From: Pseudomonadota bacterium
GTDB lineage: Bacteria > Pseudomonadota > Alphaproteobacteria > Rhodobacterales > Rhodobacteraceae
Direction: 5' to 3'
DNA: 64,000 nucleotides
NCBI GenBank assembly: GCA_038532435.1
Contig: JBCBAP010000002.1
Span: 66,327-130,326 of the forward strand
Made by a program: the position numbers and the translations under genes. The notes beneath the pieces are model-generated. The model was given only the letters and a program-made list of their open reading frames with translations. It had not been told where the DNA came from and did not search any database. Shown here in pieces: positions 4,736-45,002 of this stretch (positions within the stretch are counted from its first letter, which is position 1; every line of letters starts with the position of its first letter).

Positions 4736-6258
4736 GGCTGGCCGAACAGGGTTTCGACCGCGATCTGCCGGGCGACCCGCCCCTGTCCCGCCGCGTCGAG
4801 CGCGGAGAGCGCGCTGCGGAAGTCCGCGGGCTCGACGGCGGCGCCCGCGTCCAGAATGCGCAGAGCTGCGAGGATCGCCTCGCCCTCCCGCCCGCCTTCG
4901 GTCAGCAGCCGCAGGGGATCGTCCGCCTCCGCCCCGTCGCGAAACGCGCGCAGCGCAGCGTCTGCCCTGACCTCGCCATCACCGGCGGCAGCGGGCAACG
5001 GATCGGTGAAATCGCTGCCCCGGGCAAGCGCGAGGGCGGCACGGTGGAGCCACTGTGCCTCGCCAGGTAGCCAAGCGCCTGCTGCAATCGACTTGCCATC
5101 GAGAAGCAGCAGCTCTGCCACCCGTCCGGACGGGCGGGGGCGCTGTTTGATCAGCGTACCGGCATACATGCGTGCGAGCGCGGGGCGCAGCCCCTGGGGC
5201 GAAAGCGCGGTGTCAGCCGCCGCAAGCGCCTCCTCCCATTCCTCGCCATCGAGTGCTGCGTCGAGATCCTGGATCGCGCCCGCACGGCCCCAGACACCGC
5301 CGGACGCCGCAGGCGGACGCGCCCGATAGGCCGCTTGCAGGATCCGCGGGGGTGTCGTGGACTGGCGGACAAGCCGCTCGGCCACTTCAATCCTGTCGCG
5401 CACGGTCGCGGTATCCGACAGGTCCCAATGCAGGAACGCAAGGGGCAGAGGCTCCGCCGGGCGGGGCTGGCCGATCGCCTCGCGCACGACAAAGTCGAGC
5501 GGGGTCAGCGGCGATGGCGCGTCGAGTTCCTCATCTGTCGCGAAGAGTTCCGGATCGAGGAACCACGACATGTGCGTCGCCCGCAGCGGGTCGATCGCCT
5601 CGATCCGCTCCCCCACAGAGAGGGTGAAGGCAGCCGAACGCCAGTCGCCCCGCCGCACGGTGCAAAAGACCTGCGCCTGAATGCTGGGCGCAAACTCCGG
5701 GAAGGCCGCGATACGATCGCACGCCCTTTCCGTGTCGCCCGCCAGAAGGCTCGCATCGAACATCCGGCGGAACACATCGCGGCTCGGGTCGCCGATGAGC
5801 GCCATGAGCGCGCGCGCCTCCTCCAGCGCGCCGAGCATGAGCAGCATATCGATCCGTGAGAGCAACAGGTTCGATTGCTGGGATCCGCCGGCGGGTGGCG
5901 CGGTGCGCGCCAGCAGAAGCCGGGCGTAGAGCGCGCGCGCCGCGGGCACACCCGTGCCCTTGACCTGCCGCATCAGGCTCCGGATGCGCAGCCCGCTCGA
6001 CCGGCCCCAGACCTGCTTGGAGAATCCGGTGTTGGCACTCGGCAGCAACCCTATCCCGTCGAAGGAAAGGGGTGGCAAGCTTTCCTGCGTGACCTTTCCA
6101 CCGGTACTGCCCGGGGTGACGGACGGCGTCGCCCGCCCCGGATCGGCAAGCACATCAGACAGCCAGTCGATGGCGCTCAGGGGCGCATCCTGCGCCGCGG
6201 CATGTCCCGCTGTCAGCGACAGAAGAACCGCGGCAGCGATCTTACGAACCGAGATCAA
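4732..6258 (-). CDS. Secreted hypothetical protein; stop overlaps the xerD start
   Basis: Listed ORF is 4732..6315. SD GAGGAGG lies 9 nt upstream of an in-frame TTG at 6258, giving a canonical Sec signal (ISVRKIAAAVLLSLTAGHAAA/QD). The ATG-6315 extension is Arg/Pro-rich and overlaps a better small ORF. The 3' end forms an ATGA overlap with xerD. No family recognised. Confidence 0.6.
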   Translation of the reverse strand: MISVRKIAAAVLLSLTAGHAAAQDAPLSAIDWLSDVLADPGRATPSVTPGSTGGKVTQESLPPLSFDGIGLLPSANTGFSKQVWGRSSGLRIRSLMRQVKGTGVPAARALYARLLLARTAPPAGGSQQSNLLLSRIDMLLMLGALEEARALMALIGDPSRDVFRRMFDASLLAGDTERACDRIAAFPEFAPSIQAQVFCTVRRGDWRSAAFTLSVGERIEAIDPLRATHMSWFLDPELFATDEELDAPSPLTPLDFVVREAIGQPRPAEPLPLAFLHWDLSDTATVRDRIEVAERLVRQSTTPPRILQAAYRARPPAASGGVWGRAGAIQDLDAALDGEEWEEALAAADTALSPQGLRPALARMYAGTLIKQRPRPSGRVAELLLLDGKSIAAGAWLPGEAQWLHRAALALARGSDFTDPLPAAAGDGEVRADAALRAFRDGAEADDPLRLLTEGGREGEAILAALRILDAGAAVEPADFRSALSALDAAGQGRVARQIAVETLFGQP

Positions 6259-6379
6259 GGGGTACGACCTCCTCGACCGTCGAGCGCGGCGCGGGCAGAT
6301 CGGCAAACATGGCATAGACCGCGAAGCCAGCCACGGCGATCAGCAGCAACACGATCAAATAGAGCAGCACACGTCCCAT
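6242..6379 (-). CDS. Candidate 45-aa single-pass membrane micro-protein (below ORF-track cutoff)
   Basis: Hand translation gives MGRVLLYLIVLLLIAVAGFAVYAMFADLPAPRSTVEEVVPLDLGS*. There is one strong hydrophobic helix, AAGGA lies 9 nt upstream of the ATG, and the 3' end overlaps the TTG start of the next gene by 17 nt. Confidence 0.4.
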   Translation of the reverse strand: MGRVLLYLIVLLLIAVAGFAVYAMFADLPAPRSTVEEVVPLDLGS

Positions 6380-6509
6380 GCGCCTGTGTCCTTTGCCTCA
6401 TGCGCACGTCATCGCGTTGCGCTATTTTTTTCAGATGTTATCACTCAAAACCGAGGCAGGTCCACCGTAAGCCACAGGGGCGCGGGGCGGCGCCTCGTCC
6501 GACTCCGTT

Positions 6510-7112
6510 TTGCCATCAAGGTGTTGCACCCGCGTGACCGACCCAGCCACCACCGCAAGCCTGAAACGGCCGATCATCCTGATCGGACTCATGGGGGCCG
6601 GAAAGACCAGCGTCGGCCGGAGGCTCGCAAGCCGTATCGGGGCACAGTTCGTGGACTCCGATGCGGAGATCGAGGCGGCGGCGGGCATGAGCATTCCGGA
6701 AATCTTTCAGGTCCACGGGGAGCCGCACTTCCGTGCCGGGGAGCGCAAGGTGATCTCCCGCCTGCTCGATGGTCCGCCCCGTGTGGTGGCGACCGGCGGC
6801 GGGGCCTTCATGGCGCCGGAGACGCGGGAAGCGGCGCTGCAGGTGGGCACCGTCGTTTGGCTCGATGCAGACCTCGACACGCTCTTTGCCCGGGTGTCGC
6901 GGAAACCCGGGCGCCCGCTTCTCGCGCAGGACGACCCGAAGGCGGTGCTCGCTGCTCTCATGGATGATCGCTATCCCATCTATGCGCGGGCCCATGTGCG
7001 GGTGAGGTCCACACCGCAGGCAAGCCATGATGAGATGGCGGCAGCCATCCTTGAGGCCGTTGCGGCGTTCGACGTCACCCGCGCGGCGGCCGACCGCACC
7101 TTCCAGTCCTGA
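6510..7112 (+). CDS. aroK: Shikimate kinase
   Basis: P-loop LIGLMGAGKTSVG, plus DSD and GGG motifs, directly upstream of aroB. The start is uncertain: TTG at 6510 or in-frame GTG at 6534. Confidence 0.9.
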   Translation: MPSRCCTRVTDPATTASLKRPIILIGLMGAGKTSVGRRLASRIGAQFVDSDAEIEAAAGMSIPEIFQVHGEPHFRAGERKVISRLLDGPPRVVATGGGAFMAPETREAALQVGTVVWLDADLDTLFARVSRKPGRPLLAQDDPKAVLAALMDDRYPIYARAHVRVRSTPQASHDEMAAAILEAVAAFDVTRAAADRTFQS

Positions 7113-7122
7113 AAGGCTGACC

Positions 7123-8241
7123 ATGACAGAGACCCGGCTCACCGTGCCAATTGGCGAGCGCAGCTATGACATCCTGATCGGGCCGGGTCTGATCCGCCGG
7201 GCGGGTTCAGAGATTGCACCGCTGCTGCGCCGCCCCCGCGTCGCGGTCATCACCGACGAGACGGTCGCGGCCCTGCATCTCGACACCCTGCGTGACGGTC
7301 TGGCAGAGGCGGGGATCGCCATGAGTGCCCTCTCCCTTCCCGCGGGAGAGAAGACGAAAGGATGGCAGGGCATCGAACGCGCGGTCGAGTGGCTGATCGC
7401 GGAACAGGTTGAGCGGGACGACATCGTGGTCGCCTTCGGCGGCGGCGTGATCGGGGATCTCGCCGGGTTTGCCGCGGCGATCCTCCGCCGGGGGGTTGCT
7501 TTCGTGCAGATCCCGACCACCCTGCTCGCCCAGGTGGACAGCTCCGTTGGTGGGAAGACCGGCATCAACTCACCCCAGGGCAAGAATCTGGTTGGTGCGT
7601 TCCACCAGCCGCTCCGCGTGCTCGCCGACGTGGATGTGCTGGGCACCCTTGACCAGCGCGACTTTCTCGCGGGCTACGGAGAGGTGGTCAAATACGGTCT
7701 GCTCGGCGATTTCGACTTTTTCGAATGGCTCGAAGGGCAGGGCCCAGCTATCGCCGCCGGAGATCAGGCCGCGCGGATCGAGGCGGTTCGCCGGTCCTGC
7801 CAGATGAAGGCCGATATCGTCGCGCGTGACGAGACGGAGCGGGGCGACCGTGCCTTGCTCAATCTCGGCCACACGTTCGGCCACGCGCTTGAGGCCGCAA
7901 CCGAATACTCGGACCGGCTGCTCCATGGGGAGGGGGTGGCCATCGGGTGCGCGCTCGCCTTCGAAACCTCCCAACGGCTCGGGCTGTGCGCGCAGGAGGC
8001 TCCGTCGCGGGTCCGTGCGCATCTCAGCCGTATGGGTATGAAGACGACCCTGCGCGACATTCCCGGGGATCTGCCCGGGGCGGAGACGCTCATCGCGCTG
8101 ATGGGACAGGACAAGAAAGTCCGCGACGGGCAGATCGCGTTCATTCTCGCCCGCGGTATCGGGGAGGTGTTCGTGACCCGTGATGTGGATCCCGCCATCG
8201 TGCGCCAAGTGCTCGAAGATGCGCTTGCGGAGCGCGGCTAG
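7123..8241 (+). CDS. aroB: 3-dehydroquinate synthase
   Basis: In-frame ATG at 7123 (MTETRLTVPIGERSYDI) after trimming the 32-codon extension that overlaps aroK. Motifs seen: GGGVIGDLAGFAA, VDSSVGGKTGIN, HTFGHALE. Confidence 0.92.
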   Translation: MTETRLTVPIGERSYDILIGPGLIRRAGSEIAPLLRRPRVAVITDETVAALHLDTLRDGLAEAGIAMSALSLPAGEKTKGWQGIERAVEWLIAEQVERDDIVVAFGGGVIGDLAGFAAAILRRGVAFVQIPTTLLAQVDSSVGGKTGINSPQGKNLVGAFHQPLRVLADVDVLGTLDQRDFLAGYGEVVKYGLLGDFDFFEWLEGQGPAIAAGDQAARIEAVRRSCQMKADIVARDETERGDRALLNLGHTFGHALEAATEYSDRLLHGEGVAIGCALAFETSQRLGLCAQEAPSRVRAHLSRMGMKTTLRDIPGDLPGAETLIALMGQDKKVRDGQIAFILARGIGEVFVTRDVDPAIVRQVLEDALAERG

Positions 8242-8250
8242 CCGCCGAAT

Positions 8251-9459
8251 CTACCGCGCGCCAAGTCCCAGATGCATCGCCGCCTGTTTGAGCGGCCCGA
8301 TCCCGGACAGTGCACGAAGCCCGATCCGACGAAGGTCCCGCAGCGGCTGAGCCTCGGTCATCGCCGCGCGGTTGAGCAGGTCCACGCCAGTAATACGCAG
8401 GGCCACATCCGGCCGTCGCGCGCGGGCGTAGCGGGCGAGCAGGTCGGACGTTCCGATATCCTTGCCCGCGCTTCGCGCAGTCGTCACCAGATCGAGCAGG
8501 GTTTCGATATCCGCAAGGCTCATGTTGAGACCCTGTGCGCCAATGGGCGGCATCACGTGGGCGGCCTCGGCAATGAGCGCCGTGCGCGGACCGGAAAGCC
8601 GGGAAGCGGTCTGGCTGATGATGGGCCAGATCCTGCGAGGGGATGCGGGCGTGAGCCGCCCGAGAACGCCGCAGGCCCGCGCGTTCAGCGCCTCGGTAAA
8701 TGCCTCATCCGGCATCGCATAGAGTTCGGCGGCCCGCGCCCCGGTCTCTATCCACACCACCGCGGAACGGTTCTGCGTGCCCTCTGGACGGAGGGGCACG
8801 AGTGTGAAGGGGCCGCCGGTGCGGTGGATCTCCGTTGAGATATCCTCGTGGGGCAGATCGTGGTTTACCGCGAACACGAGTGCCTTCTGCCCGTATCGGG
8901 TCGTGCGAGCCCCGATGCCCAGCGCCTCACGAACGAAGGAGTTTCGCCCGTCGGCGCCAATCACAAGCTCAGCTGCTACGCTAGTTCCGTCGGTCAGCGT
9001 GACGCGGGCATGGTCCGATCGCACGAGCAGGTCGCTGACGCCAACGCCTGTACGCAACTCCGCAAGCGGCAGTTTGGCGATGAACCCGGTCATCTCCCGT
9101 CGGAGGAGCCAGTTTGGAAGGTTGTAGCCGAACACCTCCTGCCCGATCTCGCGCGCGGTGAAGTCCGCAACCTCCCGGATGCCATTCTCTTCGCCGCCCG
9201 CATCCGCGAGGCGCATAACGCGCAACGGGGCGGCAAAGGGGGCGAGGGCCGACCACAAGCCTACCCGCTCCATCAGGGTGATCGAAGGCATGAGGAACGC
9301 GGTGCTGCGCAGGTCGGACCCGTCCGCTGCCGCCTCTGTCACCGGTGGTACCGGGTCGACGCACAAAACCGTCAGGCCCTCGGCCGCAAGGGCAATGGTC
9401 GCCATCAGGCCGGCGACACCTCCGCCAGCGATGACCACATCTGTCTGGATCCGCTCCAT
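8251..9459 (-). CDS. UbiH/UbiF/VisC/COQ6-family FAD-dependent hydroxylase
   Basis: N-terminal DVVIAGGGVAGLMATIAL dinucleotide fold, about 400 aa, with a C-terminal GDAAH-like EAAHVMPPIGAQGLN motif. Confidence 0.8.
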   Translation of the reverse strand: MERIQTDVVIAGGGVAGLMATIALAAEGLTVLCVDPVPPVTEAAADGSDLRSTAFLMPSITLMERVGLWSALAPFAAPLRVMRLADAGGEENGIREVADFTAREIGQEVFGYNLPNWLLRREMTGFIAKLPLAELRTGVGVSDLLVRSDHARVTLTDGTSVAAELVIGADGRNSFVREALGIGARTTRYGQKALVFAVNHDLPHEDISTEIHRTGGPFTLVPLRPEGTQNRSAVVWIETGARAAELYAMPDEAFTEALNARACGVLGRLTPASPRRIWPIISQTASRLSGPRTALIAEAAHVMPPIGAQGLNMSLADIETLLDLVTTARSAGKDIGTSDLLARYARARRPDVALRITGVDLLNRAAMTEAQPLRDLRRIGLRALSGIGPLKQAAMHLGLGAR

Positions 9460-9463
9460 AAGT

Positions 9464-9489
9464 AAAAAGATAGGCCGCAGCCCCCGGCC
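9464..9489 (-). terminator. Weak hairpin plus T-run after the nucleotidase gene
   Basis: The minus strand reads GGCCG-ggggctg-CGGCC-tatcttttt, 12 nt after the stop at 9502. Confidence 0.35.
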
Positions 9490-9501
9490 CGGGAAGGGCG
9501 A

Positions 9502-10143
9502 TCAGACGAGCTGCGTCAGAAAGCCCTTGAGGTTGTCTGTGCGGAATTCGATGTGGGGGGCGACATGATCTCCGTCGACCAGGACCGTTCGCATCCCCCG
9601 CGCATGCGGAACCCGCAGGTTGTGCGGATCGTCCTCGAACATCGCGGCGTTCGCTCCATTGATCCGCGCCTTTGAAAACACGTGGTCGAACGCCTGCCTT
9701 TCCGGCTTGGGGGTGTAAAGCGCATCTTCGGTACCGTAGAGCGCCTCGAATACCCCCTTCAGGCCGCATGCTTCTGTCACCCGCCGCGCATGCTCCCGGG
9801 TGCCGTTGGTGAAGACGATCTTGCGTCCGGGCAGCGCGCGGATCGCCTCCCGCAAGTCCGGATCGGGACGGAGAGCGCTCAGATCGAGGTCGTGGACCTC
9901 GCGCAGGAACGGTTCAGGGTCGATCCCGTGGTTGCGCACGAGCCCGGCCACGGTCGCCCCGTGATCGCGGAAATAGCTTCGCTGCATTTCGCTGGCCGTC
10001 GGTTCGTCGACGTCGAGCTCCCGCTGGATGTAGCCGACGATCAGCTGATCCATCTGGCCGAACACGTCCGCGTCCCGCGAATAGAGCGTGTTGTCGAGGT
10101 CGAAGACCCATTCGTTTACATGGGAGAAGTGATCGTAGGGCAT
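9502..10143 (-). CDS. HAD-superfamily pyrimidine 5'-nucleotidase
   Basis: 213 aa with the DxDxT motif VFDLDNTLY, a TNG motif (IVFTNGT) and a C-terminal FEDD. Confidence 0.8.
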   Translation of the reverse strand: MPYDHFSHVNEWVFDLDNTLYSRDADVFGQMDQLIVGYIQRELDVDEPTASEMQRSYFRDHGATVAGLVRNHGIDPEPFLREVHDLDLSALRPDPDLREAIRALPGRKIVFTNGTREHARRVTEACGLKGVFEALYGTEDALYTPKPERQAFDHVFSKARINGANAAMFEDDPHNLRVPHARGMRTVLVDGDHVAPHIEFRTDNLKGFLTQLV

Positions 10144-10276
10144 GAAATCTCACCGGAACTGGTCCCTGCTACTTAAGTCGAACCGACTGTCATCGCCAGG
10201 GGATTCGCCGAGCCGTGAAGTCCGCGTGACCGGTCTGCTTGACTCCGATGGTACCCCGGTTGCACATTTCAGCACC

Positions 10277-10293
10277 ATGGTATGCAATACCAT
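10277..10293. promoter_or_regulatory. Candidate GntR-type operator ATGGTAT-GCA-ATACCAT
   Basis: Perfect 7-bp inverted arms with a 3-nt spacer and a GT...AC core, ending 20 nt upstream of the GntR gene ATG (10313). Confidence 0.5.
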
Positions 10294-10312
10294 ACCGAAA
10301 AAGGACGAAACG

Positions 10313-10957
10313 ATGCACGCGCCCGAACCCGGACCCACCGACGCCTACTCCCGCATTCTCGGCTCCATCGACCTTGGGGACTACTCTCCGGGGGACCGGC
10401 TGGTGGAATCTGAACTGGCGGACCGGCTCGGCATGTCTCGGACCCCGATCCGAGAAGCGCTGCAGCGGCTGGAGACGCAGGGGGTCTTGTCCCGGGATGG
10501 GCGGAGCCTCATCGTCGCGAGCCTCGATCACGATCAACTGGGCGAACTCTACGTTGTTCGGGCGGAGCTTGAGGGCCTTGCGGCCCGGCTCGCCGCGCAA
10601 CATGCAGCGCCGGAGGAAATCCGGGTACTCAACGACATGGTCGCCGATGACCGCGCGCTCCTCAACGATCCGGAGGAGATGAGCCGGGCCAACAAGCGGT
10701 TTCACCGGCAGATCCACCTTGCCAGCCACAACCGCTACCTGATCCAGCAGCTCGAGAGTGTTCGCCGCTCCATGGCACTGCTGGCCACCACCTCCTTCAG
10801 CGCGGAGGGACGCCCGGAGATTGCGATCGAGGAGCATGCTGCCATCGTCGCCGCCATTGAGGCGCGGGATGGGGAGGCAGCTGACGAGGCCGCACGGGTC
10901 CATATATCTACCGCCTACGAAACACGGCTCAAGATCGACGCGGGCGCCGGTCGCTAG
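10313..10957 (+). CDS. GntR/FadR-family transcriptional regulator (FCD domain)
   Basis: In-frame ATG at 10313. Winged helix-turn-helix ESELADRLGMSRTPIREALQRLETQGVL, followed by an all-helical FCD-like C-terminus. Confidence 0.85.
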   Translation: MHAPEPGPTDAYSRILGSIDLGDYSPGDRLVESELADRLGMSRTPIREALQRLETQGVLSRDGRSLIVASLDHDQLGELYVVRAELEGLAARLAAQHAAPEEIRVLNDMVADDRALLNDPEEMSRANKRFHRQIHLASHNRYLIQQLESVRRSMALLATTSFSAEGRPEIAIEEHAAIVAAIEARDGEAADEAARVHISTAYETRLKIDAGAGR

Positions 10958-10959
10958 AC

Positions 10960-11712
10960 ATGCGCGATCTCGATGGGATCGCCGCGGAAATCCACGCGGC
11001 ACGGCGGGATCGGTCGCCGTTCCGGGTCTATCCTGCTCTCGATATCGCGGCAGGCTTCGACGTGCAGGATCGGGTGACCGCGCGGTCCGGTCCGGTGGGG
11101 GGCTACAAGATCGCGTGGAATTCCGCCAAGCTGATGGCCGATTACCGCATGCCCCATCCGGGCGCTGCCCGCATCCTCGCCGCAGACATCCACGAGGATG
11201 GCGCAGTACTCGATCGCACCGCCTATCGCGAACTGCTCATGGAGCCGGAGATCGCTGTCATCCTCGGCCAGCCGGTCACACCCGACCATCCGTGGGACTG
11301 CGCGGATGACCTCCGGGAGCGGGTCGCACGGTTCGTGCCCGCGATCGAGCTGCTTGATCGGAGGGGTGCGCAGGAGCTTCATGCGCCGTCGATCCTTGCG
11401 GGGAATGTTTTCAACTGCGGGATCGTGCTGGGCGGGCCGGGGGCCGGACCCGATGCGGATCTCACCTCCCACTGCACGGTGACCTGCGCCGGGCGGGTTC
11501 TTTGCGATGCGCCGGACACGGCGCCGCAACCCGTGCTGGAGGCGATGGCGTTCTTGGTGAGACACTACACCTCCCGGGGCGTAACGCTCCACGCGGGCCA
11601 GGTGCTGATGTGCGGCACCCATGCGGGCATCACCCCGCTCGCGCCCGGTGACGAGGTGACGATGACCGTCACCGGGCTTGGGTCTGTCAGCCTCTGCGTC
11701 GCGGAGGGTTGA
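10960..11712 (+). CDS. 2-keto-4-pentenoate hydratase / 4-oxalocrotonate decarboxylase-like (FAH fold) protein
   Basis: 250 aa with a GGYKIAW motif. It starts 2 nt after the GntR stop, suggesting an operon. Confidence 0.6.
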   Translation: MRDLDGIAAEIHAARRDRSPFRVYPALDIAAGFDVQDRVTARSGPVGGYKIAWNSAKLMADYRMPHPGAARILAADIHEDGAVLDRTAYRELLMEPEIAVILGQPVTPDHPWDCADDLRERVARFVPAIELLDRRGAQELHAPSILAGNVFNCGIVLGGPGAGPDADLTSHCTVTCAGRVLCDAPDTAPQPVLEAMAFLVRHYTSRGVTLHAGQVLMCGTHAGITPLAPGDEVTMTVTGLGSVSLCVAEG

Positions 11713-11716
11713 GGGC

Positions 11717-12673
11717 TCAGAGGTTGAGCTGGTAGCTCGCCGCCGTGTAGCGGAACCCGTCGCCTGCTGCCTCCAGATACCCGACGGACGGGAAGGGCAT
11801 GTGGTAGCCGACGAAAGGAATGCGATCCGACGCGATCATTCCGAAGAGCGCCTTGCGCGTCGCCGCTGCCGCTTCCTTGTCCGCATCGAACCGCACATGC
11901 CAGTCCGGCCGCTCCAGCGAAAGCACGAAATGGTTCGCCGCATCCGCCGTGAGCATGAGCGACTCCCCTTCGCTTTCGATATGGTAGGCCATGTGGCCCG
12001 GGGTGTGACCGAATGCACCGACCGCCTCGATCCCCGAGACGACGCTGCCGCCCGGGTCGAGGAAGCTCATCATCTCTGCGACCGGGGCGACATTCGCCTG
12101 CACCATGTCGTAGATCCGCTGGCCCGGCGTGCCCACACGGGCCTCGTCGGTCCAGAAGTTGTACTCTGCACTGCCGGTGACGTAGCGCGCATAGGGGAAG
12201 GCCGGCGCACCGTTCTCGAGCACGCCGCCGATATGGTCCGGGTGCATGTGCGTGAGGACCACGATATCGACCTGGTCCGCGCGATAGCCGGCAGCCTCGA
12301 TCGCGGCGGCGAGCTGCCCGCGCGCGGGGCGGGCGCCGGCGCCGTTTCCGGTATCAAAAAGGATCAGCTCTGCGCCGGTGTTGACGAGCGTCGGGGCGAA
12401 GGTGAATTCCATGGTCGTGGTCGAAAGGTTGTTCTCCGCCAGCAGAGCCTCAACGTCCGCCACCGACTGGTCCTGGCCAAAGATCGGCTGCGGCCCTTCC
12501 ACAGGCACGGCACCGTCGAGCAACGTTGTCACCTCGAACGCGCCTACCTTGAACCGGCGGAAGGTGGGGCGGGCATTGCCCAGCATCGGTGCCGCGCCGA
12601 GAGCGGGCAGGGCGGGCAGCGAAAGCCCCGCTGAGGCGGTGGCGAGCAGGGCGCGACGGGTGAGAGACGGCAT
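11717..12673 (-). CDS. Tat-exported MBL-fold metallo-hydrolase (lactonase-like)
   Basis: ATG at 12673 is preceded by GGGAGGA. Twin-arginine signal SLTRRALLATASAG and the HxHxDH motif THMHPDHIGG are present. Confidence 0.75.
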   Translation of the reverse strand: MPSLTRRALLATASAGLSLPALPALGAAPMLGNARPTFRRFKVGAFEVTTLLDGAVPVEGPQPIFGQDQSVADVEALLAENNLSTTTMEFTFAPTLVNTGAELILFDTGNGAGARPARGQLAAAIEAAGYRADQVDIVVLTHMHPDHIGGVLENGAPAFPYARYVTGSAEYNFWTDEARVGTPGQRIYDMVQANVAPVAEMMSFLDPGGSVVSGIEAVGAFGHTPGHMAYHIESEGESLMLTADAANHFVLSLERPDWHVRFDADKEAAAATRKALFGMIASDRIPFVGYHMPFPSVGYLEAAGDGFRYTAASYQLNL

Positions 12674-12763
12674 GGGGGATCCTCCCTTGGATGTGTGTGC
12701 CATCCTGGGATGTGGGGTCGGTCTCAAAAAGGTCCAGTCCGCGCAGAGCGTCCGGATTGTTTC

Positions 12764-14665
12764 TCAATCGGATCCGGTATCCGGCGCGAGCCCATGCTCG
12801 GTCTTGTGCCAATGGAATGGCTTCGCAAAGAGCTCCGCCAGTGCCCGGTAGGCCGCAAGCGCACCGAGCGGCCAGTAGACCGGCAGCGTAAGGATCCAGG
12901 GGACGAGCGCCCGTTTCGCGGGCGTGCGCACGGCGATGGCGATGGCGGTGATCATCACGAGCTGTCCCACCGGCATGGAGATCCAGAAGAGTGTCCAGAG
13001 CGGGCCAGACAGGTCGAGCGTGTCCGTGACCCGGATCCCGAGCAGGCCCAGCATGACAAGCGTCCAGAAGAGCGGCAGCGCGAGATAGCTCGTCATAGCA
13101 CCCAGAAACAGCACCTGAAACGTCGCAAACCCGCGGGGTCCAAGATCGGTGAAGAGCTGCCGCGGATCCTGCATATGGGTCATCCAGGTGATCGCGTAGC
13201 CCTTCAGCCACCGCGACCGCTGCATGATCCAGTTGCGCATCCGGCAGTTCGCCTCCTCGTGGGTCGTGCTGTCGATCATCTCGCACCGGTAGCCGTGGCG
13301 GGCGAGGCGCATGCCGAGATCCGCGTCCTCGGTGACATTGTGCGCGTCCCACGCGCCCACCTGATCGAGCGCGTCCCGCCGGAAGAATACCGAGGTGCCG
13401 CCAAGCGGGATCGGCAGGCGCAGTCGGGTCATCCCGGGCAGCAGCACCGCGAACCACACCGCATACTCCATGGCGAAGCAGCGGGTCAGCCAGTTCTGCC
13501 GCGGATTGTAGAAATCGAGCCGGGCTTGCACGCAGGCCAGATCCCGCGGCGCTTCTGACAGGCGCCGCGCCACCTTTCGCAACTGGTCCGGATCCGGTCG
13601 GTCCTCCGCATCATAGATGCCGATGATCCCGCCCTGGCAGAAGTCGAGCGCGTAGTTCATCGCCCGAGGTTTGGTGCGCAGACTGTCCTCGGGCACGGTG
13701 ATCACGTCGATCCAGGGGGGCAGGGCGACCCGCGTGAGACTGGCGCGGGTCACGGTGTCGTCGGCCTCGAGCAGCAGCTTGACCTCCAGGCAATCCCGCG
13801 GATAGTCGAGCGCCCGGAGTGCTTCGATCAAGCGATTAAGCACGCGGTCCTCCCGCAGGAGCGGCACGAGGAGGGAGATCATCGGCAGTTGCCTGTGATC
13901 GGCGAGGGCGGTCACACCCGGGGTGCTTGGCCTCGGCGTCGGGTCCCGCCATGCGCCGGTTGCGAGCGCGCTGCCGCGCAGCAGGGTGGTCGCAAAGTTG
14001 GCGACGACGATCCAGACGAGCAGGGCCGTCAGGGCCGCCTGCGGCCAGAACAGGGTAGCGGCGCCGAACAGTACCAGCGCCGCCAGCACCATATGCCGGA
14101 ACCGGGTCAGGCTGTCTGCCCGACAACTTGCCTGCTCCGGACACCGTGTCCGCGCACGGCCCGCGAGGTCCGGTCCGTGAAGTCGGGTGAGCTCATGCTG
14201 GATCGCACGGCTGTCTGCGACCGCGAAGGCGAGCCGCTCGGGCACCGGCCCGATCGCCTCCCGTATCTCCGCGATCCGGGACGGGTCCGCAACGGCGATG
14301 ATGAGGGTGGAGCCAAGCCGGTGCCAGATCACGAATTCCAGATCGAGGCAGACCAGCGGATCGAGGCCCGCGTTCGCCTCCCAATCCGAGGCCATCTGCG
14401 TGAGGTCGACGAGCCCAAGGCCGTGTTGCCTGCTGATCGCCCGCAAGAGCGCCCGTCGGCTGATCCTGCCCTCCGAGACCAGAAAATCACCGAAGCGGCT
14501 GTCGCTGCGGCGCTCGGAATACTCCGCCAGCGCCTGCCGCAGACCGGCCATGGAGAGCGCACCGGACTGCATCAGCAACTCGCCAAGGCGCAGATGCTGG
14601 TCCCCCAACGGGGTCGCCCGCGGCGGCACACGGCCCGCGCCATCGAACTGGTACACGAAACTCAT
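12764..14665 (-). CDS. Membrane-embedded processive family-2 glycosyltransferase with N-terminal T2SSE_N/MshEN domain
   Basis: 633 aa. Two tandem 24-aa RLGxxLLxxGLL-type motifs lie at the N-terminus, then 2 TM helices. GT2 motifs follow: YDAEDRPD, TEDADLG, QRSRWLKGY. The C-terminus has several more TM helices. Confidence 0.8.
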   Translation of the reverse strand: MSFVYQFDGAGRVPPRATPLGDQHLRLGELLMQSGALSMAGLRQALAEYSERRSDSRFGDFLVSEGRISRRALLRAISRQHGLGLVDLTQMASDWEANAGLDPLVCLDLEFVIWHRLGSTLIIAVADPSRIAEIREAIGPVPERLAFAVADSRAIQHELTRLHGPDLAGRARTRCPEQASCRADSLTRFRHMVLAALVLFGAATLFWPQAALTALLVWIVVANFATTLLRGSALATGAWRDPTPRPSTPGVTALADHRQLPMISLLVPLLREDRVLNRLIEALRALDYPRDCLEVKLLLEADDTVTRASLTRVALPPWIDVITVPEDSLRTKPRAMNYALDFCQGGIIGIYDAEDRPDPDQLRKVARRLSEAPRDLACVQARLDFYNPRQNWLTRCFAMEYAVWFAVLLPGMTRLRLPIPLGGTSVFFRRDALDQVGAWDAHNVTEDADLGMRLARHGYRCEMIDSTTHEEANCRMRNWIMQRSRWLKGYAITWMTHMQDPRQLFTDLGPRGFATFQVLFLGAMTSYLALPLFWTLVMLGLLGIRVTDTLDLSGPLWTLFWISMPVGQLVMITAIAIAVRTPAKRALVPWILTLPVYWPLGALAAYRALAELFAKPFHWHKTEHGLAPDTGSD

Positions 14666-14706
14666 CGTCTCCCCCGGATGTCCTCCGGCAGGATGGCGAG
14701 ACTTGG

Positions 14707-14722
14707 TTAATGTAAAATTAAC
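14707..14722 (+). promoter_or_regulatory. Perfect CtrA-box consensus TTAA-N7-TTAAC
   Basis: The sequence reads TTAAtgtaaaaTTAAC, 42-57 nt upstream of the GT2 ATG (14665), in the 66-nt spacer after carA. Confidence 0.5.
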
Positions 14723-42220: not shown

Positions 42221-42832
42221 CTAGTCCTCGGGGTCGTAGCGTTCCACGTAGGAGGTGATCAGCCGGTCCATCGCCTCGCGCGCGGCGAAGTTCATGTCCG
42301 GGCTCACGTCGAGGGAGGCTGCCATTTTCCAATGGCCGTACATTAGCGCGACGAAGAGATGGGCGAGTTCCTCGCAGGCCCGCTGGGGCAGGTCGCTGTG
42401 GCTGATCTGGATCTCATGGGCAACCGTCAGGCGCAGAAGCCCGTAGCCGTCCGTTAGGTTCTGCTTGACCCGCGGATGGGTCGCGGCGAGCGCCATCATC
42501 GCGTCGTAGATCGTGTCATCCACCGGTTTCGAATGGCCCGTGGTGGTCACCAGTCCGAAATAGAAATCGAGGAAGAGGTCCAGCCGTTCTGTCGATTTCG
42601 CGGCGAGGATCCCCTCAGCGAGCCGCCGCTTGTACTCCGCCGCCAGGGCATCGCACACCGCGACCATGAGCTCTTCGGGATCCGAAAAGTAGTGCCGGAC
42701 AAGCTGGCGGGACATGTCCGCCTCTGTCGCGATCTTGTCATAGACAGGAAGTGCCACACCTGTGGTCTGCAGCGTTCGCATGCAGGCGTCCACAATCTCG
42801 GCGCGCCGGATGTCTGCGATACGTTGTGCCAT
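42221..42832 (-). CDS. TetR/AcrR-family transcriptional regulator
   Basis: 203 aa with an N-terminal helix-turn-helix (YDKIATEADMSRQLVRHYF). Confidence 0.8.
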   Translation of the reverse strand: MAQRIADIRRAEIVDACMRTLQTTGVALPVYDKIATEADMSRQLVRHYFSDPEELMVAVCDALAAEYKRRLAEGILAAKSTERLDLFLDFYFGLVTTTGHSKPVDDTIYDAMMALAATHPRVKQNLTDGYGLLRLTVAHEIQISHSDLPQRACEELAHLFVALMYGHWKMAASLDVSPDMNFAAREAMDRLITSYVERYDPED

Positions 42833-42892: not shown

Positions 42893-42908
42893 GTTAACGG
42901 ATTATTAA
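42893..42908 (-). promoter_or_regulatory. Perfect CtrA-box consensus TTAA-N7-TTAAC (minus strand)
   Basis: The minus strand reads TTAAtaatccgTTAAC, 61-76 nt upstream of the TetR ATG, in an AT-rich spacer. Confidence 0.45.
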
Positions 42909-42927: not shown

Positions 42928-43563
42928 TCAAACTTCAAGACCGAGCAGCCCGCTTTCGAGCACATAGCGGGTCAGTCCGGCGGTGGTCGAGATGCCGAGT
43001 TTGCGCTTGATGTTTTTGCGATGGGTCTCGACCGTCCTGATCGAAATCGAGAGTTCCTCCGCCACTTCCTTGTTGCTCTTGCCCCGGGCAAGGCGCAGCA
43101 GGACCGTCTGCTCCCTGGACGTGAGGACGCCGCGTCCTTCCGCATCGTCGGGGGGCTGGATCATGCGCTCCGTGCCCGTGCAGAGGTAGATCTCGCCTGC
43201 ATGCACCCGCTCGATGGCGGTCACGATCTCTTCGGTCGGTACGTCTTTGAGGAGGTAGCCGCGCGCGCCATGGCGCAGGGCGGTGGTGATGTATTCCGGA
43301 TTGTCGTGCATGGACAGCACCACAATCCGCGCCTCCGGCGTGCGCTCCAGGATGATCTCCGTCGCGGTCAGCCCGTTCATGCCCGGCATGTTGAGATCCA
43401 TGAGCAGCACATCCGGGCTGTGCGCGGCCATCGCCTCGACCGCGTCCCGCCCGTTTGCGGCCGTGCCCAATACCTCGATCTGGGGGTAGGTCTCCAGCAT
43501 GGCGCGGATGCCCTCGGTCACCAGCGGGTGGTCATCGGCGAGGACGATGCGGATCTGGCTCAT
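42928..43563 (-). CDS. NarL/FixJ (LuxR-type) response regulator
   Basis: Receiver domain with DD...D (LLMDLNMPGMNG) and a C-terminal helix-turn-helix LTSREQTVLLRLARGKSNKEVAEEL. Forms an ATGA overlap with the kinase gene. Confidence 0.9.
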   Translation of the reverse strand: MSQIRIVLADDHPLVTEGIRAMLETYPQIEVLGTAANGRDAVEAMAAHSPDVLLMDLNMPGMNGLTATEIILERTPEARIVVLSMHDNPEYITTALRHGARGYLLKDVPTEEIVTAIERVHAGEIYLCTGTERMIQPPDDAEGRGVLTSREQTVLLRLARGKSNKEVAEELSISIRTVETHRKNIKRKLGISTTAGLTRYVLESGLLGLEV

Positions 43564-45002
43564 GCGCTGCGCTCCATGCTTTGGGGGGCACCACCGCTGA
43601 CAAGGTGCTTGGCTGGCAGGTTCACGTCGATGATCGTGCCCTTGGAGGAACTGAGCACGCGCAGCGTGCCATCCAGATGCTCGATCCGCTCCGCCATGTT
43701 GCGCAGCCCGATGCCCGCTTTGGGCCCGACCTCCGTCGAAGGGGTAAAGCCGACGCCATTGTCCCGGATTGTCATGCGCACGCCCCGGCGGTGGGGCTTG
43801 ATCTCCACAAGGGTCTGCGTGGCTGCGGCATGACGCTCGATGTTCGTCAGTGCCTCCTGCGCGACGCGGAAGAGGGCGGTCTTGCCTTCCGAATTCAGGC
43901 TGTTGCGCAGGGCGACCGTGTCGAGCCGGGTCGCGATGCCCGTGCGGTCCGAGAACTCGTCGCAGAGCGATTGCAACGCGGGAGACAACCCTAGATCGTC
44001 GAGTGCGCCCGGCCGCAGATCGCGGGAGATCCGGCGCACCTCCTGAATCGCGGTGTTGAGGGAGGATTTTGATTTTTCAATCGGATCGAGACTGTCGCCC
44101 CGCCCGGTCGCGATCCGCCGTCCTGCAAGCTCAAGCGAGTAGCGGATGGAGACGAGGAGTTGACTGATTCCGTCGTGCAGCTCCCGCGCCACACGCCCCC
44201 GCTCTTCCTCCTGTGTATCGACAATGCGCGCGGCGAGCCCGGCGAGCTTCGCATCCGCAAGGCGCCTTTCGCGCAGGTTGATCACCAGGCCGGAGAAGAA
44301 GAGGCCGACCATGACGATGAGCGTGATCGACACGATCCACACGAAGGTCGTGCGGATGCGAGCCTCCATCTCTGCCCGCGCGGCGGCGACCTCCGCAATC
44401 ACATCGTCGATGAAGATCCCGGTGCCCACGGCCCATTTCCAATCTTGCAGGCCGATCACGTAGGAAAACATCTCCGCCTCCTCGCCCGTCGACGGTTTCG
44501 GCCAGACGTAGCGGTGATATCCGCCACCCTGCCGGGCCAGATCGATCAGCGGCTCGACCACGGGTGTGCCCTGGCTGTCGGTCAAATCCTCCCAGTTCCC
44601 ACCGATCAGAAAGGTCTGGCGTGGAGAAACGAGGTTGGTCCCGTCATACTCGTAGACGAAGAAGAAGCCGTCCTTGCCATAGGTCATCGCCGAGAGGATC
44701 TGCGTCGCCCGCAGCTTCGCCTCCTCATCATCGAACTGCGCTGGGCCGTAGATGTGATAGATCGCGTTCCGCGCGAGGCTCATATAGTTGTGAAGCTCCG
44801 CCTGCTTGGCCTCCAGCAGCGTCTCCTCGAGCAGTGCAAGTTCCTGTTCGGTGAAGTGACGGTACTGGTAGGCGACCAGCGCGGTGATCGCCGCGACGGC
44901 GAGGACAAGCGGCAAGGCGGCCAGAAGAACGATCTTCTGGCCGTAGTTCGGTCTCAGCATCGTCAGGAGGGATCGCAGGCGCGCTCCCGTCGGCGTCTCC
45001 AT
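43560..45002 (-). CDS. Sensor histidine kinase, periplasmic single-Cache-like domain, HisKA_3 type
   Basis: 480 aa. Two TM helices flank a roughly 190-aa periplasmic domain. H-box ELHDGISQLL and an HATPase_c domain (GIGLRNMAERI) follow. Confidence 0.85.
   Translation of the reverse strand: METPTGARLRSLLTMLRPNYGQKIVLLAALPLVLAVAAITALVAYQYRHFTEQELALLEETLLEAKQAELHNYMSLARNAIYHIYGPAQFDDEEAKLRATQILSAMTYGKDGFFFVYEYDGTNLVSPRQTFLIGGNWEDLTDSQGTPVVEPLIDLARQGGGYHRYVWPKPSTGEEAEMFSYVIGLQDWKWAVGTGIFIDDVIAEVAAARAEMEARIRTTFVWIVSITLIVMVGLFFSGLVINLRERRLADAKLAGLAARIVDTQEEERGRVARELHDGISQLLVSIRYSLELAGRRIATGRGDSLDPIEKSKSSLNTAIQEVRRISRDLRPGALDDLGLSPALQSLCDEFSDRTGIATRLDTVALRNSLNSEGKTALFRVAQEALTNIERHAAATQTLVEIKPHRRGVRMTIRDNGVGFTPSTEVGPKAGIGLRNMAERIEHLDGTLRVLSSSKGTIIDVNLPAKHLVSGGAPQSMERSA

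What the first reader, a model, noticed from the sequence alone, without database searches (positions are those of the whole stretch)
12764..14665. Stand-alone processive GT2 synthase fused to an MshEN-type predicted c-di-GMP receptor domain
The N-terminus carries two tandem 24-residue motifs, RLGELLMQSGALSMAGLRQALAEY and RFGDFLVSEGRISRRALLRAISRQ, separated by 7 residues. These closely match the published MshEN c-di-GMP-binding consensus RLGxx(L/V/I)(L/V/I)xxG(L/V/I)(L/V/I)xxxxLxxxLxxQ. The rest of the T2SSE_N fold follows, then 2 TM helices. Next comes a GT2 catalytic domain with DAED, TED and QRSRW motifs of processive beta-glycan synthases, then further TM helices. This suggests a polysaccharide synthase gated by c-di-GMP through an N-terminal MshEN module rather than a C-terminal PilZ as in BcsA. 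No export or modification genes lie nearby; the flanks are carA and a periplasmic hydrolase gene. The product and its secretion route are therefore unknown. A GGDEF-EAL protein is encoded at 53001-54770.
Basis: partly seen in the sequence, partly recalled or inferred. Interest (0 to 1): 0.6.

Follow-up and report, generated by a model that had tools for sequence, protein, structure and literature searches.

The report
c-di-GMP-sensing sugar-polymer synthase gene
This gene encodes a membrane sugar-polymerising enzyme with a built-in sensor domain for the bacterial signal c-di-GMP; the design was catalogued in 2016 and nearly all Rhodobacteraceae carry it, so it is real but not new, and its product is still unknown.

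Summary
Window 12764-14665, on the minus strand, encodes a 633-aa protein. It has two tandem MshEN motifs (residues 26-49 and 57-80), the MshEN_C subdomain, two TM helices, a GT2 domain with D303, DAED, TED and QRSRW, and more membrane helices. The AlphaFold2 model is confident (pLDDT 92, pTM 0.91). Its N-domain superposes on c-di-GMP-bound V. cholerae MshE, and the rest matches BcsA, hyaluronan synthases and chitin synthases.

The reading as a c-di-GMP-gated processive synthase is the best explanation, but it is not novel. Wang et al. 2016 already list 'MshEN - Glyco_trans_2_3' (Rhodobacter sphaeroides Rsph17029_0522). E. coli NfrB, with the reverse domain order, is an experimentally shown c-di-GMP-activated glycan synthase.

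Points added here:
- The gene is a near-universal, syntenic core gene of the family (334 of 356 good genomes), always just downstream of carA.
- No export partner exists next to it or anywhere in this genome.
- A CtrA box (TTAA-N7-TTAA) precedes it here and in 66 of 78 other species.
- This genome has no PilZ domain and only this one MshEN domain.

Product, export route, c-di-GMP binding and the sign of CtrA control remain untested.

The parts
12764..14665 (-). Whole gene: 633-aa MshEN-TM2-GT2-TM synthase
   Evidence: ORF and translation; Pfam and NCBIfam scans; AF2 model with pLDDT 92.1 and pTM 0.91
14706..14722 (-). CtrA box GTTAATTTTACATTAAC (TTAA-N7-TTAAC readable on both strands), 40 nt upstream of the ATG, in the 66-nt carA-synthase spacer
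   Evidence: Three pattern hits at two sites in the window against 0.01 expected. The same box type lies upstream of the orthologue in 14/16 family loci and 66/78 named species. It occurs 0 and 1 times elsewhere in 293 kb and 372 kb of those loci
14519..14590 (-). MshEN_N motif 1 (residues 26-49); R26, L27, G28, L42, L46 correspond to VcMshE R9, L10, G11, L25, L29
   Evidence: Alignment to 5HTL; motif scoring; conservation
14426..14497 (-). MshEN_N motif 2 (residues 57-80); R57, F58, G59, L73, I77, Q80 correspond to VcMshE R38, L39, G40, L54, L58, Q61
14168..14425 (-). MshEN_C subdomain (residues 81-166)
   Evidence: Pfam PF05157, 27.7 bits against cut-off 23.1. Foldseek 5htl_B: TM-score (target) 0.84, rmsd 2.1 over 141 columns for the whole N-domain
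13952..14116 (-). Two N-terminal transmembrane helices (residues 184-238), preceded by a conserved C-P-x4-S-C-R stretch
   Evidence: AF2 helices 184-206 and 208-238; Kyte-Doolittle scan; S180 invariant and C181/R182 above 90%
13166..13906 (-). GT2 (GT-A) catalytic domain, residues 254-500, with D303, DAED 352-355 (13601-13612), TED 445-447 (13325-13333) and QRSRW 482-486 (13208-13222)
   Evidence: Pfam Glyco_trans_2_3 at 96.5 bits and Glyco_tranf_2_3 at 82.6 bits. All four motifs are invariant in 79/79 species. Foldseek top hits are BcsA, HAS and chitin synthase
12824..13129 (-). C-terminal membrane helices: TM 513-541, TM 554-580, and a less hydrophobic long helix 582-614
   Evidence: AF2 secondary structure; hydrophobicity scan
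12791..12820 (-). Invariant C-terminal motif P-F-x-W-x-K-T-x-H-G (residues 616-625); candidate counterpart of the gating-loop motif of BcsA (FxVTxK) and HAS/chitin synthases (WGTR)
   Evidence: P616, W619, K621, T622, H624 and G625 are 79/79 conserved. The gating-loop analogy is my inference from published BcsA/HAS structures and was not tested

Best explanation
The gene encodes an inner-membrane, cellulose/hyaluronan-synthase-like processive family-2 glycosyltransferase. Its cytoplasmic N-terminus is an MshEN-type c-di-GMP receptor.

Inferred mechanism:
- c-di-GMP binds the four-helix MshEN_N bundle. Its two guanines are sandwiched by R26/L42/L46/F58 and by R57/L73/I77/L27, and read by the backbone amides of G28 and G59.
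- Binding relieves autoinhibition of the GT2 active site. This parallels MshEN in E. coli NfrB and PilZ in BcsA. It possibly works through the invariant C-terminal WxKTxHG loop.
- The enzyme then polymerises a UDP-sugar and threads the glycan through its own TM helices into the periplasm.

Transcription is under the response regulator CtrA, through a conserved TTAA-N7-TTAA box directly upstream. Because c-di-GMP also controls CtrA activity through CckA in this group, the signal would act on the gene and on the enzyme.

Shown in silico: architecture, fold, motif conservation, synteny, box conservation. Inferred: c-di-GMP binding, activation, processivity, polymer identity, and whether CtrA activates or represses.
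For: - Domains and motifs.
- c-di-GMP contacts: alignment to c-di-GMP-bound VcMshE retains 11 of 12 key contact residues, with L39 and L58 conservatively changed to F and I (read against PMC5013675).
- Fold: AF2 model pLDDT 92.1, pTM 0.91. Foldseek gives BcsA 4p00_A at E=1e-12, Xenopus and Chlorella-virus HAS, chitin synthases, and 5htl_B (MshE with c-di-GMP) at TM-score 0.84 and rmsd 2.1.
- Conservation: D303, DAED, VTED, QRSRW and the C-terminal motif are invariant in 79/79 species. MshEN key positions are kept at 14 or more of 16 in 66/79 species, and this copy scores 15/16.
[quoted passage not shown] The same architecture is listed by Wang et al. 2016.
- Distribution: the gene is present in 372/401 genera of the family, and in 334/356 high-quality genomes. 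It sits after carA in 15/17 fetched loci.
- CtrA box.
- Genome context: 0 PilZ, 1 MshEN and 3 GGDEF proteins.
Against: - No biochemical data exist for any member of this clade in the literature searched.
- This copy has a 2-residue insertion and Glu in place of the Gln32-equivalent, and Arg67 at a normally hydrophobic motif position. The NCBIfam c-di-GMP motif model scores 36.5, just under its 38-bit cut-off.
- About 13 of 79 species have degenerate motifs yet keep the domain, so the domain also has a c-di-GMP-independent role.
- Only four strongly hydrophobic TM helices are predicted, fewer than the eight of BcsA, so a monomeric channel is not assured.
- No outer-membrane export partner exists next to the gene or anywhere in the genome.
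- All curated GT family models score far below their cut-offs, so the sugar cannot be named.
Confidence: 0.7

Rival explanations
1. The GT2 part is not a polymer-exporting synthase. It is a membrane glycosyltransferase that makes a glycolipid or a short oligosaccharide, in the manner of processive lipid glycosyltransferases of family GT21, NodC, or the minimal archaeal PcManGT. The product stays in the inner membrane or periplasm, which would explain the lack of any export partner. c-di-GMP gating could still apply.
For: Pfam Glyco_transf_21 hit at 32.6 bits, above its 21.7 cut-off. The highest target-normalised TM-score among the GT (synthase) hits is to the 'minimal' PcManGT 6yv7, at 0.66-0.67. 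Only four strongly hydrophobic TM helices are predicted. No BcsB-, XagC-, NfrA- or YbcH-like gene exists in the genome.
Against: The best E-values and longest Foldseek alignments are to BcsA and HAS. The full D, DxD, TED, QxxRW set, with the Trp that binds the acceptor polymer end, is invariant. Glyco_trans_2_3 scores three times higher than GT21. Streptococcal class I HAS, by established knowledge, also works with about four TM helices and no partner.
Confidence: 0.2
2. The N-terminal domain in this copy does not sense c-di-GMP. It serves as a structural, dimerisation or protein-docking module, as the homologous N1 domain of GspE/XpsE does, and regulation is purely transcriptional through CtrA.
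For: The Gln32-equivalent is lost, there is a 2-residue insertion, and Arg67 sits at a hydrophobic motif position. NF053729 scores just below its cut-off. In about 13 of 79 species the motif is degenerate while the domain is retained. Wang et al. note that XpsE lost binding through similar substitutions.
Against: All hydrophobic stacking residues, both Gly residues and both Arg residues are retained. Mutating Q32 changed affinity less than five-fold in VcMshE (PMC5013675). The motif is kept in 66/79 species over roughly 40-50% overall sequence identity, which indicates selection for ligand binding. This copy scores 15/16.
Confidence: 0.15
3. The protein is the Rhodobacterales functional counterpart of NfrB. 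Its main biological role would be to make a surface glycan that phages use as a primary receptor. It may be identical to the 'NfrB homologue' RD1_1962, whose loss blocks adsorption of RDJL phages to Roseobacter denitrificans.
For: It has the same two domains as NfrB. PMC13392355 reports RD1_1962, described there as an NfrB-homologous glycosyltransferase of at least about 490 aa, as the top phage-resistance locus, and CtrA-phosphorelay genes as the others. The gene studied here carries a CtrA box.
Against: It is not an NfrB orthologue. The domain order is reversed, GT identity is 25% over 244 aa, NF008411 scores 28.9 against a cut-off of 1170, and there is no NfrA or YbcH. I could not establish that RD1_1962 belongs to this family.
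Confidence: 0.15

Closest known systems
'MshEN - Glyco_trans_2_3' architecture group of Wang et al. 2016 (example Rhodobacter sphaeroides Rsph17029_0522, ABN75638)
   Same: Same domain order, same bacterial family, and the same syntenic gene family. Orthologues are about 40-53% identical, all with PF05157 plus GT2.
   Different: That entry is only a catalogue line with no experiment. The R. sphaeroides motif shown in that supplement is visibly more degenerate than this copy.
E. coli NfrB (c-di-GMP-activated glycosyltransferase of the NfrBA-YbcH system)
   Same: A processive GT2 with DxD, TED and QxxRW fused through two TM helices to an MshEN domain. c-di-GMP binding to MshEN is required for glycan synthesis (PMC8669469).
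   Different: The domain order is reversed, with MshEN C-terminal. The GT domains are only 25% identical over 244 aa. NfrB works with the outer-membrane NfrA and periplasmic YbcH, neither of which has a homologue in this genome. The NCBIfam NfrB model scores far below its cut-off.
BcsA cellulose synthase (PilZ-gated)
   Same: Best structural match (4p00_A, E=1e-12). Same catalytic motifs, membrane-embedded GT-A, and allosteric c-di-GMP control of a synthase.
   Different: There is no PilZ domain here, and none anywhere in the genome. Fewer TM helices, no BcsB, and TIGR03030 scores 51 bits against a cut-off of 699.
Xag-type clusters (bcsB-like - xagB - xagC - xagD; Xanthomonas biofilm EPS, stalk-forming Fe-oxidisers)
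   Same: JGI annotation names many orthologues 'glycosyltransferase XagB'. A 36%-identical MshEN-GT2 paralogue in a related genome (G014) sits in a BcsB-like - synthase - unknown-469-aa operon like the published xag-like cluster (PMC4643136).
   Different: The gene here is an orphan, with no BcsB-like or XagC-like gene in the genome. Whether Xanthomonas XagB itself carries an MshEN domain was not tested.
Caulobacter HfsJ (holdfast glycosyltransferase)
   Same: Same regulatory logic in an alphaproteobacterium. A surface-glycan glycosyltransferase is activated by direct c-di-GMP binding, and cell-cycle regulators including CtrA time its activity (PMC9980756).
   Different: Unrelated protein with no MshEN domain, part of a multi-enzyme Wzy-type pathway. 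CtrA acts there on the inhibitor gene hfiA, not on the GT gene.

Membership tests
MshEN c-di-GMP receptor domain (Pfam PF05157 / Wang et al. 2016) | HMM match above the curated cut-off | tested here: met
   PF05157 scores 27.7 bits against 23.1 on residues 81-166. The separate NCBIfam motif model NF053729 scores 36.5 against 38, just under.
MshEN c-di-GMP receptor domain (Pfam PF05157 / Wang et al. 2016) | Two tandem 24-residue motifs RLGxx(LVI)(LVI)xxG(LVI)(LVI)xxxxLxxxLxxQ joined by about 5 residues | tested here: met
   Strict consensus 8/11 and 8/11; relaxed published motif 11/11 and 10/11. The spacer is 7, not 5, and the Q32-equivalent is replaced. Met with deviations.
MshEN c-di-GMP receptor domain (Pfam PF05157 / Wang et al. 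2016) | Four-helix MshEN_N bundle plus MshEN_C fold | tested here: met
   In the AF2 model, residues about 21-180 have pLDDT of 84 and above (10-residue block means). Foldseek to 5htl_B gives TM-score 0.84 and rmsd 2.1.
MshEN c-di-GMP receptor domain (Pfam PF05157 / Wang et al. 2016) | Specific high-affinity c-di-GMP binding | not testable with these tools
   Needs DRaCALA, ITC or MST.
Membrane-embedded processive GT2 synthases (BcsA / class I HAS / chitin synthase type) | GT-A domain with D, DxD, (T)ED, QxxRW | tested here: met
   D303, DAED 352-355, TED 445-447 and QRSRW 482-486, invariant in 79/79 species.
Membrane-embedded processive GT2 synthases (BcsA / class I HAS / chitin synthase type) | Catalytic domain flanked by TM and interface helices with the synthase fold | tested here: met
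   The top 30 or so Foldseek hits are BcsA, HAS and chitin synthases plus the minimal PcManGT, at probability 1.0 and query-normalised TM-score 0.35-0.49. There are 2+2 strong TM helices plus IF-like helices.
Membrane-embedded processive GT2 synthases (BcsA / class I HAS / chitin synthase type) | Gating loop with FxVTxK / WGTR-type motif | tested here: inconclusive
   An invariant WxKTxHG lies at the extreme C-terminus after the last helix.
Membrane-embedded processive GT2 synthases (BcsA / class I HAS / chitin synthase type) | Makes and translocates a polymer | not testable with these tools
   Needs in vitro synthesis or genetics.
NfrB (NCBIfam NF008411) | GT2 - TM - C-terminal MshEN order, equivalog score, NfrA/YbcH partners | tested here: not met
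   The order is reversed. The model scores 28.9 bits against a cut-off of 1170. GT identity is 25% over 244 aa. tblastn finds no NfrA or YbcH in the genome.
BcsA cellulose synthase (TIGR03030 / NF008558) | Equivalog score, C-terminal PilZ, BcsB partner | tested here: not met
   Scores of 51 and 48 bits against cut-offs of 699 and 992. No PilZ in the protein or the genome. No BcsB-like gene.
Xag-type EPS cluster | Synthase encoded with BcsB-like, XagC and XagD partners | tested here: not met
   Partners are absent beside the gene in 15 syntenic loci and absent from the genome. They are present only with a paralogue in G014.
CtrA regulon (Rhodobacterales) | Full CtrA box TTAA-N7-TTAA(C) in the promoter region, conserved in orthologous promoters | tested here: met
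   Box at window 14706-14722. It is found in 14/16 and 66/78 orthologous upstream regions and is essentially absent elsewhere in those loci. CtrA binding and its effect on expression were not testable.

The most novel reading that the evidence does not exclude
This orphan synthase is the missing output of c-di-GMP signalling in Rhodobacteraceae, most of which have few GGDEF/EAL proteins. This genome has no PilZ receptor, and D. shibae is reported to lack one too.

c-di-GMP would act twice on the same target. It would change transcription by switching CckA and so CtrA~P at the conserved box, and it would allosterically open the enzyme through MshEN.

The product would be the so-far unidentified attachment or rosette polysaccharide of roseobacters, and possibly a phage or gene-transfer-agent receptor glycan. 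It would be exported without any dedicated outer-membrane partner.
Probability: 0.25. Interest if true: 0.65.

Novelty: new member of a known kind. Interest (0 to 1): 0.35.

Why it matters
Roseobacter-group bacteria switch between swimming and attached life under CtrA and c-di-GMP control. No c-di-GMP effector for polysaccharide production is known in them, and D. shibae is explicitly reported to lack PilZ proteins (PMC6473078). The genes for their polar adhesin are also unknown (PMC9980756). A single, nearly universal, CtrA-boxed gene that joins a c-di-GMP receptor to a polymer synthase is an obvious, easily testable candidate for that link.

As a protein design, though, it repeats what NfrB has already shown, and the architecture has been in the literature since 2016.

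Tried and rejected
- **NfrB orthology: rejected.** The domain order is reversed, GT identity is 25%, the model scores far below cut-off, and there are no NfrA/YbcH partners.
- **BcsA, PgaC, NodC, EpsU or MftF membership: rejected.** All score 20-52 bits against cut-offs of 280-990.
- **The MBL-fold neighbour as a partner: rejected.** It is present in only 3 of 17 loci, carries a Tat signal, and resembles AidB-type AHL lactonases.
- **Operon partners: none found.** The conserved neighbours are carA upstream and a divergent GntR, HAD and FAD-monooxygenase block downstream.
- **Testing whether R. denitrificans RD1_1962 is the orthologue: failed.** No supplement was held. A 5-contig, 4.3-Mb candidate genome (G442) has a 3.54-Mb chromosome, so it is not strain OCh114. 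No sampled genome had a hit near 1.874 Mb.
- **Exact-sequence context look-up of a homologue:** nothing found.
- **Literature searches** linking CtrA regulons to this gene found nothing.
- **Terminator and promoter scan** found no terminator between carA, the synthase and the MBL gene, and no sigma-70 consensus promoter.
Full report
**Observation.** The ORF at 12764-14665 lies on the minus strand and encodes 633 residues. Each matches 8 of the 11 specified positions of the strict published consensus. Against the relaxed search motif of Wang et al. 2016 the scores are 11/11 and 10/11, the exception being Arg67.

Pfam places MshEN (PF05157) on residues 81-166, above its cut-off. It places Glyco_trans_2_3 and Glyco_tranf_2_3 on 261-539. 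NCBIfam's MshE-related c-di-GMP motif model hits 26-80 at E=3e-9, 1.5 bits under its cut-off. DAED, TED and QRSRW are at 352-355, 445-447 and 482-486.

The flanks are as stated. carA is upstream on the same strand. A Tat-signal MBL-fold hydrolase gene is downstream. The PAS-GGDEF-EAL protein at 53001-54770 is real.

**Structure.** An AlphaFold2 model from a 121-sequence alignment is confident: pLDDT 92.1, pTM 0.91. Foldseek against the PDB gives the following:
- Best hits are Rhodobacter BcsA with c-di-GMP (4p00_A, E=1e-12), Xenopus and Chlorella-virus hyaluronan synthases, E. coli BcsA, chitin synthases and the minimal archaeal PcManGT.
- For the N-domain, the hit is c-di-GMP-bound V. cholerae MshE (5htl_B), with target-normalised TM-score 0.84 and rmsd 2.1 Å.

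The helices fall into these groups:
- two N-terminal TM helices (184-238);
- the GT-A domain;
- an interface helix carrying QRSRW (476-497);
- two strongly hydrophobic TM helices (513-541, 554-580);
- a long, less hydrophobic helix (582-614);
- an invariant C-terminal PFxWxKTxHG.

With 2+2 TM helices, the MshEN domain, the GT domain and probably the C-terminal motif are all cytoplasmic. The motif resembles the FxVTxK and WGTR gating-loop motifs of BcsA and of HAS/chitin synthases. That equivalence is my inference.

**Is the sensor intact?** I aligned the N-domain to VcMshE and read it against the published contact map (PMC5013675). The correspondences are:
- Gua1 sandwich: R9, L25, L29, L39 correspond to R26, L42, L46, F58.
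- Gua2 sandwich: R38, L54, L58, L10 correspond to R57, L73, I77, L27.
- The two glycines that read O6/N7: G11 and G40 correspond to G28 and G59.
- Q61 corresponds to Q80.

Only the Q32 position is lost. It is Glu51 here, next to a two-residue insertion (Y49, S50) that 109 of 114 homologues lack. Wang et al. state that altering Q32 changed affinity less than five-fold. Binding is therefore likely but possibly weakened.

**Family, distribution and context.**
- *Close homologues.* Hundreds of proteins of 40-53% identity have the same architecture and come from Rhodobacterales: Amaricoccus, Pontivivens, Sulfitobacter, Paracoccus, Rhodobacter, Phaeobacter, Roseovarius, Jannaschia, Thioclava and others.
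- *Family tally.* One genome was sampled for each of 401 genera of the window's family. Of these, 372 have the gene, and 334 of 356 high-quality genomes do. The 6 genomes sampled from a second family of the order lack it.
- *Synteny.* In 15 of 17 fetched loci the gene sits in the same block: COX1 ... small unknown gene - carA - synthase - divergent GntR - HAD - FAD-monooxygenase.
- *Insertion.* The MBL gene and a 222-aa unknown gene are inserted after the synthase only here and in two other genomes, so they are not partners.
- *Motif conservation.* Across 79 named species D303, DAED, VTED, QRSRW and the C-terminal motif are invariant. The MshEN key positions are kept at 14 or more of 16 in 66 species and are degenerate in about 13. 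This copy scores 15/16.
- *Partners.* tblastn of the whole genome finds no BcsB-like, XagC-like, NfrA or YbcH homologue.
- *c-di-GMP network.* The genome is 97.9% complete. It has one MshEN domain (this one), no PilZ domain and three GGDEF proteins.

**Regulation.** Another first-stage note (e1-2994015) pointed to a CtrA box in the 66-nt carA-synthase spacer, and I tested it.
- GTTAATTTTACATTAAC lies at 14706-14722, 40 nt upstream of the ATG. The pattern TTAA-N7-TTAAC gives three hits at two sites in the window, against 0.01 expected.
- TTAA-N7-TTAA lies just upstream of the orthologous gene in 14 of 16 family loci. Those are the only occurrences in 293 kb.
- It also lies upstream in 66 of 78 named species, against one occurrence elsewhere in 372 kb. 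It is usually 45-130 nt before the projected start, often as GTTAAC-N5-GTTAACC, and sometimes as two or three boxes phased by 11 bp.
- The box lies downstream of carA, and the next gene downstream is divergent, so it can only serve the synthase gene.

The gene is therefore a conserved member of the CtrA regulon. The sign of control is unknown.
- A box this close to the start codon could overlap either the -35 region (activation) or the core promoter (repression).
- One transcriptome of R. denitrificans reports 'xagB' up-regulated, with more biofilm, in CtrA-phosphorelay mutants (PMC13392355). xagB is the KEGG name that JGI gives many orthologues.
- If that is the same gene, CtrA~P represses it. 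I could not verify the identity.

**Comparison with what is known.**
- *Wang et al. 2016.* Supplementary Table 4 lists 'MshEN - Glyco_trans_2_3', example R. sphaeroides Rsph17029_0522, found in Actinobacteria, Firmicutes and Proteobacteria. It sits beside the reverse order, 'Glyco_trans_2_3 - MshEN', exemplified by E. coli NfrB.
- *NfrB.* It has since been shown to bind c-di-GMP through MshEN and to need both binding and GT activity to make a secreted glycan that phage N4 uses (PMC8669469, PMC8669472).
- *Not an NfrB orthologue.* The domain order is reversed, GT identity is 25% over 244 aa, and the model scores far below cut-off. The protein here works like NfrB but belongs to the other, uncharacterised, architecture group.
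- *Xag-type link.* A 36%-identical paralogue in one related genome sits in a BcsB-like - MshEN-GT2 - unknown - response regulator - kinase operon. This resembles the published 'bcsB-xagBCD' clusters (PMC4643136). The orphan Rhodobacteraceae gene may therefore derive from a Xag-type system. This is an inference.

Earlier agents of this scan reached the same classification for orthologues in other genomes. I treat those as leads, and the evidence here was produced independently.

**Verdict.**
- It is a new member of a known kind.
- What remains open: the polymer, how or whether it crosses the outer membrane without a partner, whether this slightly atypical MshEN binds c-di-GMP, and whether CtrA activates or represses.
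- The most interesting reading not excluded is that this gene is the c-di-GMP and CtrA output that builds the unknown attachment or phage-receptor glycan of roseobacters. I give that a probability of about 0.25.

Noticed in passing
window 11717-12727 (-): This MBL-fold protein has a twin-arginine signal (MPSLTRRALLATASAG...). Its best NCBIfam hit is the AidB family of quorum-quenching AHL lactonases, at 134 bits and well below the 360 cut-off. Together with a 222-aa gene of no known family (10954-11622) it is inserted after the synthase only in this genome and two relatives (L015, L030).
   Followed up: partly
window 42893-42908: This is the second perfect TTAA-N7-TTAAC site in the window. It lies 61-76 nt upstream of a 203-aa minus-strand ORF (42221-42832) with no Pfam family, directly downstream of a Cache-HisKA_3 kinase / NarL-type response regulator pair (42928-45002).
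   Followed up: partly
L032-L111 (orthologous loci), 15-45 nt downstream of the CtrA box: In many species the leader between the CtrA box and the start codon carries a hairpin whose arms differ completely between species, for example CCTTACATTAAGATGTAAGG in L047 and GCCTTAACACTTTGTTTAAGGC in L080. Over 68 loci the mean folding z-score is -1.65, and 46% score below -1.5. No T-run follows the hairpins inspected by eye. The window's own leader shows no such hairpin (z=0.0). It could be a 5'-end stabiliser, a U-less carA terminator overlapping the promoter, or a translational element.
   Followed up: partly
L029 (G014:C1:706641-724332), 5875-14101: This low-GC-looking five-gene operon encodes a BcsB-like protein (657 aa), an MshEN-GT2 paralogue (629 aa, 36% identity to the query), an unknown 469-aa protein, a response regulator and a dCache histidine kinase. 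It is a Xag-like EPS cluster present in addition to the syntenic core copy.
   Followed up: partly
L030 (G017:C6), 7989-9609: The syntenic orthologue in this genome is split into two overlapping reading frames (residues 86-379 and 357-632 of the query). This is a likely frameshifted pseudogene or a sequencing error.
   Followed up: no
window 14122-14143 and scattered (residues 175-182, 343, 378, 396): Several cysteines are conserved in more than 90% of homologues: C175 and C181 in a C-P-x4-S-C-R stretch just before TM1, plus C343, C378 and C396 in the GT domain. This is unusual for a cytoplasmic GT2. It could mean a metal site or redox sensitivity.
   Followed up: no
whole genome G000: The c-di-GMP network is very small: three GGDEF proteins (one of them the PAS-GGDEF-EAL protein at window 53001-54770), no PilZ domain, and a single MshEN domain.
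   Followed up: yes
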